Below are positions 53,943-54,200 of a stretch of 64,000 nucleotides of DNA, piece after piece; the stretch's first letter is position 1, and each line of letters begins with the position of its first letter. The notes beneath the pieces are model-generated. The model did not search any database. It was not told the DNA's origin and worked only from the letters and a program-made list of their open reading frames with translations. The DNA lies in NCBI GenBank assembly GCA_964016885.1, contig OZ024742.1, forward strand, positions 66,650,001-66,714,000, written 5' to 3'. The DNA is from Eledone cirrhosa. Lineage: Eukaryota. The translations under genes were made by a program, and so were the position numbers.

Positions 53943-54200
53943 AGATGAGATTCTACAGGACTAGAACTGTTTCATTCTTTAGAAATCATCAGGAATCTGG
54001 CTGTCCAAAATAAATGTTGTGGTAATATAGATGAGATTCTACAGGACTAGAATTGTTTCATTCTTTAGAAATTATCATGAATCTGGCTATCCAAAATAAA
54101 TGTTGTGGTAATATAGATGAGATTCTACAGGACTAGAACTGTTTCATTCTTTAGAAATCATCAGGAATCTGGCTGTCCCAAAAAATATTGTGGTAATATA
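53943..54200 (-). repeat. Three tandem 86-bp units, each containing a hammerhead motif
   Basis: Units start at 53943, 54029 and 54115; HHR intact at 53948-53998 and 54120-54170; the middle unit has a mutated core (AUGAUAA). Confidence 0.85.

What the first reader, a model, noticed from the sequence alone, without database searches (positions are those of the whole stretch)
53943..54200. 86-bp tandem repeat in which each monomer is essentially a hammerhead ribozyme
Seen: three head-to-tail 86-bp units. In each, 51 nt of the minus strand fold as AGAUUC-CUGAUGA-UUUC UAAA GAAU-GAAA-CAG(8-nt loop)CUG-UA/GAAUCU, with a 6-bp stem I. Units 1 and 3 are intact and unit 2 has a mutated core. Another intact copy lies at 25336-25386 and a diverged plus-strand relative at ~25870-25920. 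Established: known HHR satellites and retrozymes (newt Sat2, Schistosoma Sm-alpha, metazoan retrozymes) have monomers of roughly 150 to several hundred nt. Inference: self-cleavage of an intact array would release 86-nt monomers, an unusually small candidate self-cleaving mobile or circular RNA.
Basis: partly seen in the sequence, partly recalled or inferred. Interest (0 to 1): 0.8.

Follow-up and report, generated by a model that had tools for sequence, protein, structure and literature searches.

The report
Hammerhead-only tandem repeats from Penelope ends
The three 86-base repeats are likely a one-off local triplication of a ribozyme-shaped scrap from the end of a common jumping gene rather than a tiny mobile RNA, but the same scrap also forms a 377,000-base array of 78-base units elsewhere in this genome and likely marks the first letters of the jumping gene's RNA.

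Summary
The array is real: three 86-bp units, each with a 51-nt type I hammerhead motif on the minus strand; units 1 and 3 are intact, unit 2 is mutated. It is not a mobile 86-nt unit. The core occurs 10,296 times in the genome, the 86-bp junction 3 times, all in this window, and the 25-kb copy looks copied from this locus. The unit is a 5'-truncated pseudo-LTR end of a Hydra-type Penelope-like element (intact 713-aa ORFs in a sister subfamily), likely triplicated at a TA microhomology. Cleavage is doubtful: pair 10.1-11.1 is U-U and the hammerhead is not the preferred fold.

Two by-products matter more. (1) The same ribozyme forms short tandems at 16 other loci, one a 377-kb satellite of 4,777 78-bp monomers with no significant selection on the core. 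(2) About 2,100 dispersed copies begin exactly at the first base of helix I, mostly after an extra G, 30 bp behind a TATA box conserved in a diverged family. The element's capped RNA therefore probably starts with the ribozyme. No RNA data were available.

The parts
53943..54200 (-). Three head-to-tail 86-bp units: 5'-truncated pLTR end of a Penelope-like element, between microsatellites
53948..53998 (-). Hammerhead motif, unit 1, core intact; predicted cut 3' of 53954
54034..54084 (-). Hammerhead motif, unit 2, C3>A and G8>A, predicted inactive
54120..54170 (-). Hammerhead motif, unit 3, core intact; predicted cut 3' of 54126; 54170 is the inferred +1 of the parent transcript
53751..53945 (.). 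(TA)n/(GA)n microsatellite at the 3' end of the insertion
54196..54213 (.). (TA)n run at the 5' truncation point; supplies the microhomology shared with the element's tail; replaces the native TATA box
25280..25663 (-). Likely templated copy of 54064-54455 (part of unit 2, unit 3, start of the 432-bp repeat); holds the intact motif at 25386-25336
   Evidence: 95.4% identity; carries unit-2 mutations; mosaic of diagnostic sites
25841..26010 (+). Diverged sister-family pLTR end: TATA box at 25841, helix I start at 25871, broken core, tail
54212..54742 (-). Neighbouring, unrelated ~430-bp hammerhead repeat (typical retrozyme-like family); not part of the 86-bp unit

Best explanation
The 86-bp array is likely a one-off DNA-level triplication of a 5'-truncated end of a Penelope-like retrotransposon that inserted into a (TA)n run; it carries a hammerhead motif inherited from that element and is likely inert debris, not a mobile 86-nt RNA. 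Steps: (1) Shown: the motif lies in the pseudo-LTR of an element whose sister subfamily has an intact RT plus GIY-YIG ORF downstream. (2) Shown: thousands of short copies end at two fixed tail points and lie in (TA)n. (3) Inferred: the ORF protein nicks (TA)n and copies only this short RNA region. (4) Inferred: one such copy, cut just after the TATA box, was duplicated twice by slippage or unequal exchange between the flanking (TA)n and the matching letters of its own tail. (5) Inferred: part of the array was later copied to 25 kb during break repair. (6) Inferred, about 0.65 on its own: the parent's capped transcript starts at the first base of helix I, so run-off reverse transcription makes ribozyme-only inserts. 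These would be the raw material for recurrent short tandems, one of which grew into a 377-kb satellite.
For: Junction found 3 times, all in the window, against 10,296 core copies. The 27 other best loci are single or inverted, 5'-truncated copies of a longer repeat. Tail runs into an ORF at 72 places; 5 of 8 fetched loci have an open 713-aa frame. All three units share one truncation point, and 7 letters are shared between upstream (TA)n and the native tail. Short tandems at 15 other small loci have differing periods, 64-175 bp. Positive control: the neighbouring ~430-bp family shows one period at many dispersed loci. The 25-kb copy matches the 54-kb locus at the first 10 diagnostic positions and its local neighbour at 5 of the last 6. 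For step 6: 2,536 copies have a non-native base before helix I, G in 76 of 100 listed; 25 of 30 inspected are true junctions; TATA at -30 in 29 of 42 copies of this family and 12 of 15 TATA-bearing copies of a diverged family; TATA 83/88 and core 73/77 identical between families, spacer only 95/242.
Against: No ORF-bearing copy of the window's own subfamily was found; the link runs through a sister subfamily with 50 of 51 ribozyme letters identical and one locus where the window-type tail continues into the leader. The 3'-most unit lacks the tail letters that form the microhomology, so the exact exchange point is uncertain. Pattern searches miss mutated junctions. One 78-bp unit does occur on two chromosomes. 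The start site is inferred from DNA ends only; part of the G excess can come from the inverted arm or from a 1-3 nt fold-back.
Confidence: 0.82

Rival explanations
1. One reading: the 86-mer is a minimal retrozyme that self-cleaves to 86-nt monomers, circularises and spreads by rolling-circle reverse transcription.
For: Two intact cores; a core under selection in the parent lineage; tandem hammerheads can act as dimers.
Against: Junction unique to this window; intact units not adjacent; junction not at the cut site; no TATA box; U-U at 10.1-11.1; hammerhead helices have probability <=0.02 in the array context.
Confidence: 0.04
2. The three units arose during insertion, by the Penelope RT re-priming or jumping on the same short RNA, not by later DNA slippage.
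For: Partial tandems are typical of these elements; some small arrays have (TA)n of differing length between units; junctions sit at the short-tail priming point.
Against: All three units stop at the same point about 26 nt upstream of helix I, where ends are rare (about 7 per base against about 2,100 at +1); independent RT rounds should differ or stop at +1.
Confidence: 0.12
3. Rival to step 6 only: 5' ends pile up at helix I because the new cDNA folds back on its own copy of helix I and stops or inverts, not because the RNA starts there.
For: 59 junctions join the antisense tail directly to helix I; many inverted pairs turn within 4-37 nt of the core; fold-back also predicts a G.
Against: Does not explain a TATA box at -30 with a length-conserved, sequence-free spacer in two families; the match to a fold-back is only 1 nt in 9 of 19 G junctions and 2-3 nt in 9 more, several explained by the flank.
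Confidence: 0.25
4. The array is an assembly artefact.
For: Microsatellite-rich region; no listed read contig bridged the junction.
Against: Units differ by several substitutions, and a second locus carries the same junction and the unit-2 mutations.
Confidence: 0.02

Closest known systems
[quoted passage not shown]
   Same: Type I motif in the pLTR; mostly single truncated copies; opposite-strand pairs; low expected activity.
   Different: Has a 4-bp helix III with an 8-nt loop rather than a minimal one; U-U instead of the conserved G10.1-C11.1; inverted pairs here are often under 40 nt apart, not about 100-700 bp.
Non-LTR retrozymes (Cervera and de la Pena 2020, PMC7229834, passages; Li, Clavereau and Pollet 2026, bioRxiv 10.64898/2026.07.22.740005, parts 1-3 of 5, supplements closed)
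   Same: Tandem repeats with type I hammerheads derived from pLTRs by local amplification; 86 and 78 bp fall inside the 51-972 bp range of the preprint.
   Different: The window array lacks two consecutive intact units and is not dispersed. The 78-bp array has 4,777 units against a stated maximum of 300 in that survey, and no dispersed family.
Hydra-clade Penelope-like elements (Craig et al. 2021, PMC8557442; section 11 and passages)
   Same: Single ORF, C-terminal GIY-YIG, DKT motif, CxCX5C linker, no CCHH, hammerhead, (TA)n targets.
   Different: RWR for RWK; long microsatellite-rich 3' region, so possibly over 3 kb; not placed on a tree here.
Poseidon element of Anolis, PAc (Frangieh et al. 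2024, PMC11167929; parts 1-2 of 4)
   Same: Two RT start points downstream of the hammerhead define a tail; the ribozyme may need the protein to fold.
   Different: Tail here is about 70 nt; the hammerhead lies about 180 nt upstream of the ORF instead of overlapping its start.
Hammerhead satellites such as Dolichopoda pDo500 (PMC2837043, abstract only)
   Same: A satellite with a hammerhead in each unit.
   Different: There the ribozyme region is reported as more conserved than the rest; in the 78-bp satellite the core is not significantly conserved (p=0.26).

Membership tests
Type I hammerhead ribozyme | Conserved core CUGANGA, GAAA, UH | tested here: met
   Units 1, 3 and the 25-kb copy; not unit 2
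Type I hammerhead ribozyme | Three helices can close the core | tested here: met
   6, 3 and 4 bp; 82% of cells paired across 18 distinct sequences against 28-59% when slid
Type I hammerhead ribozyme | Core and stems conserved, loop II free, across families | tested here: met
   Core 73/77 and 43/44, loop II 13/44; outer helix I changed on both sides. Shuffle control for covariation only marginal (23/500).
Type I hammerhead ribozyme | G10.1-C11.1 pair | tested here: not met
   U-U in both families; feature from PMC4209133
Type I hammerhead ribozyme | Active fold is thermodynamically favoured; Rfam model match | tested here: not met
Type I hammerhead ribozyme | Self-cleavage after GUA | not testable with these tools
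   Needs in vitro assay
Non-LTR retrozyme (86-bp array) | Two or more consecutive units with complete hammerheads | tested here: not met
   Unit 2 lies between the intact units; criterion
Non-LTR retrozyme (86-bp array) | Same unit dispersed over many loci | tested here: not met
   3 of 3 junctions in this window
Non-LTR retrozyme (78-bp satellite) | Consecutive intact units | tested here: met
   513 of 3,933 neighbouring pairs both intact in core and stems
Non-LTR retrozyme (78-bp satellite) | Dispersal by retrotransposition | tested here: inconclusive
   One other locus, 7 copies, without tail or (TA)n flanks, 96.4% to its best match
Non-LTR retrozyme (both arrays) | Monomeric linear and circular RNA in vivo | not testable with these tools
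   No RNA holder listed
Penelope-like element pLTR fragment | Contiguous with an RT plus GIY-YIG ORF | tested here: met
   Sister subfamily; Pfam support weak (GIY-YIG E=0.069)
Penelope-like element pLTR fragment | 5' truncation, inverted copies, tail on one arm, microsatellite targets | tested here: met
Hydra clade (parent) | DKT, CxCX5C linker, no CCHH, flanking CxxC and CxH, (TA)n targets | tested here: met
   Read from the 713-aa ORF against the description
Hydra clade (parent) | RWK motif; length under 3 kb | tested here: inconclusive
   RWR; no second pLTR within about 2 kb of the stop in the loci fetched
Hydra clade (parent) | Placement in an RT phylogeny | not tested
   No reference proteins were fetched

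The most novel reading that the evidence does not exclude
This Penelope-like element's capped mRNA begins with its hammerhead, so cleavage 45 nt in would remove the cap and act as a switch on the element's own RNA; run-off copies of that first stretch seeded a 377-kb satellite that is two-thirds ribozyme and, if transcribed, releases 78-nt linear or circular RNAs. The start-site part alone is about 0.65 likely; the probability given is for the whole statement.
Probability: 0.15. Interest if true: 0.8.

Novelty: new variant of a known kind. Interest (0 to 1): 0.48.

Why it matters
The window array itself is ordinary transposon debris. The genome-wide picture bears on two open points. First, the role of hammerheads in Penelope-like elements is described as unclear. 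A start site at the first base of helix I would make the ribozyme the capped 5' end of the mRNA, a prediction that one 5' RACE or CAGE experiment can test; it would also explain why ribozyme-only inserts and tight inversions are so common. Second, the genome shows the proposed route from pLTR to tandem ribozyme repeat at every stage, from dimers to a 4,777-unit satellite that keeps its founding insertion at one edge. It also shows that such arrays can grow without detectable selection on catalysis, a caution for surveys that count them as active retrozymes.

Tried and rejected
Rfam scans: only microsatellite-driven miRNA matches among the 150 of 226 rows shown for the window; no hammerhead for the array. 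Walking upstream to find the ORF led into microsatellite; the ORF lies downstream of the tail. RNA evidence: no RNA holder listed. Laying contigs on the 86-bp junction gave no listed bridging record and is uninformative; whether a second sample holds the 78-bp junction could not be told. I first read the 59 tail-to-helix I junctions (10 of 12 with the long tail on the antisense arm) as a footprint of in vivo cleavage. I dropped this: helix I gives 6 nt of microhomology anyway, and only 2 of 38 distinct loci (counted by eye) begin exactly at the cut, while 21 begin at -1 to +8. A splice acceptor at helix I was considered and rejected: the upstream sequence is not a fixed exon, and the diverged family lacks the AG. 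Selection in the satellite: core divergence 0.024 against 0.033 elsewhere, base-matched p=0.26; almost no compensatory changes; monomers are not independent, so power is limited. The first pair count had helix I off by one column and is superseded. Folding of a satellite dimer did not run. Earlier findings: none. Lunse et al. 2017 on dimeric Penelope hammerheads was not held; only its title was seen. Literature searches for a TATA box or start site at helix I found nothing specific; subscription papers and preprint supplements were not searched, so absence from print is not established.

Full report
Observation. The array is as described: 53943-54200, period 86, three copies. Each unit holds a 51-nt type I hammerhead motif on the minus strand; units 1 and 3 are intact and unit 2 has C3>A and G8>A. 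The drawn structure is possible but not favoured: -4.2 kcal/mol against an MFE of -7.6 for the 51-mer, and helix probabilities of 0.02 or less in the array. Position 10.1-11.1 is U-U, where Penelope hammerheads usually have G-C. Rfam does not recognise it. The window belongs to a 3.0-Gb assembly rich in microsatellites and full of Penelope-like ORF fragments; the organism was not identified.

Is the 86-mer a mobile unit? No. A 26-nt piece of the core has 10,296 exact copies. The head-to-tail junction, with one mismatch allowed, has 3, all in this window. The 27 best loci outside the window are single or inverted pieces of a longer repeat, truncated at the 5' side and mostly ending in (TA)n at one of two tail points. 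The copy at 25336 is part of a 390-bp segment 95.4% identical to 54064-54455. It carries the unit-2 mutations, matches the 54-kb locus at the first 10 diagnostic positions and its local neighbour at 5 of the last 6, the pattern expected of a templated repair copy (inference). A real dispersed tandem family lies next door as a control: the ~430-bp hammerhead repeat has 12,756 exact core copies and shows the same period at many loci among the first 100 listed.

Parent element. The tail continues into a leader and ORF at 72 places. Five of 8 fetched loci have an open 713-aa frame with RT motifs, DKT, a CxCX5C linker, a C-terminal GIY-YIG-like domain and no CCHH, fitting the Hydra clade description. 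Pfam support is weak and no tree was built. These copies belong to a sister subfamily that differs from the window unit at 1 of 51 ribozyme positions. Against 11 copies of a more distant family the core (73/77, 43/44) and stems are conserved while loop II (13/44) and downstream sequence (54/165) are not, and outer helix I has changed on both sides. The motif has therefore been under selection in the element, whatever its activity as naked RNA. In the Anolis element the ribozyme cleaved only with protein.

How the array formed. All three units start at the same point, just after the native TATA box, and the upstream (TA)n shares 7 letters with the native tail. Two rounds of slippage or unequal exchange at that microhomology is the simplest account (inference). 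The 3'-most unit ends in a (CT)n/(AT)n run, so the exact exchange point is uncertain.

Other short tandems. A gap-pattern search for two ribozymes within about 170 bp gave 2,710 matches. Of these, 2,685 lie in one array on contig C28, 24 lie at 16 small loci including the window, and 1 was not listed. The small loci have differing periods, from 64 to 175 bp; a 211-bp tandem turned up separately. The C28 array spans 30,496,762-30,873,650 with 4,777 monomers of mostly 78 bp. Its left edge is an ordinary inverted insertion with the long tail, and its junction again sits at a microhomology. The junction is present in read contigs of run X1, which may be the assembly's own sample. Of 4,017 monomers aligned from 34 of the 39 stretches, 76% have an intact core and 39% an intact core plus all stem pairs. 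The core is not significantly more conserved than other columns (p=0.26, four junction columns left out) and compensatory changes are nearly absent. Monomers have no TATA-like word at -30. A 7-copy array on C1 shares the 78-bp junction, matches C28 at 96.4% and lacks tail and (TA)n flanks, so it is likely a DNA-level copy. The 2026 preprint reports units of 51-972 bp, at most 300 units per array, and cleavage in 1 of 9 tested dimers; its supplements were closed and may list comparable short families.

Where copies begin. 2,536 copies have a non-native base right before helix I, G in 76 of the 100 listed; 25 of the first 30 are true junctions, 19 with G. About 5,600 dispersed copies have the native base (twice the reverse count). 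In 42 ends from 40 loci, taken from the top of that list while skipping loci already held, 4 end at -1, 13 between -6 and -250, and 25 further up. That is roughly 2,100 ends at one base against about 7 per base upstream. A TATA box lies at -30 in 29 of these 42 and at -32 in 2; in the distant family it lies at -30 from helix I in 12 of 15 TATA-bearing copies, with a spacer of the same length but only 39% identity. The -30 spacing rule and the initiator consensus, which the letters at +1 fit in this family, are recalled knowledge. An extra G at full-length 5' junctions is attributed to the mRNA cap in LINE-1 insertions (PMC11702581, passage). The most likely reading is that the capped transcript starts at the first base of helix I, and that RT primed 60 or 130 nt downstream runs off that end, making ribozyme-only inserts. 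Fold-back of the cDNA on helix I is the rival and clearly occurs at times (59 junctions). I found no convincing genomic footprint of cleavage.

Verdict. The finding as framed is ordinary: a local triplication of a Penelope-like pLTR end. Interest comes from the 78-bp satellite and from the start-site inference, both DNA-only, with no RNA holder listed. Searches for a published start site at helix I found none in the held library, which does not cover most subscription journals.

Noticed in passing
window 54212-54742, 24698-25252, 16172-16928: A ~430-bp repeat with its own minimal hammerhead (palindromic helix III; motifs at 24893-24864 and 16428-16398, minus strand). 12,756 exact core copies, many in dispersed tandems of 420-433 bp: a typical non-LTR retrozyme-like family. 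Three copies also abut the right edge of the C28 satellite.
   Followed up: partly
G000:C28:30,496,762-30,873,650 (L111-L149, L218-L222): 377-kb satellite of 4,777 78-bp hammerhead monomers with shifting higher-order periods and a few 350-500 bp insertions.
   Followed up: yes
window 55064-55030, minus strand: A third hammerhead-like motif with a near-canonical helix II and minimal helix III; family not traced.
   Followed up: no
window 22936-24488 (-), 33323-34383 (+), 2207-6391 (+), 56987-57956 (-), 59137-60725 (-): Broken Penelope-like RT and endonuclease frames of several families.
   Followed up: no
window 45102-45611: 245-bp tandem containing a ~105-bp palindrome at 45207-45311, in (TA)n; similar sequence flanks several fetched loci; may be another inverted Penelope end.
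   Followed up: no
window 40048-40208 and 51164-51351: Long inverted repeats matched spuriously by miRNA models.
   Followed up: no
L210, L211, L213, L214, L216: Near-identical intact 713-aa ORFs suggest a recently active element; the 3' region is a long degenerate TG/TA microsatellite.
   Followed up: partly
L035/L036 and L039/L042: Identical inversion junctions at different loci: either strong hot spots or re-mobilised inverted composites.
   Followed up: no
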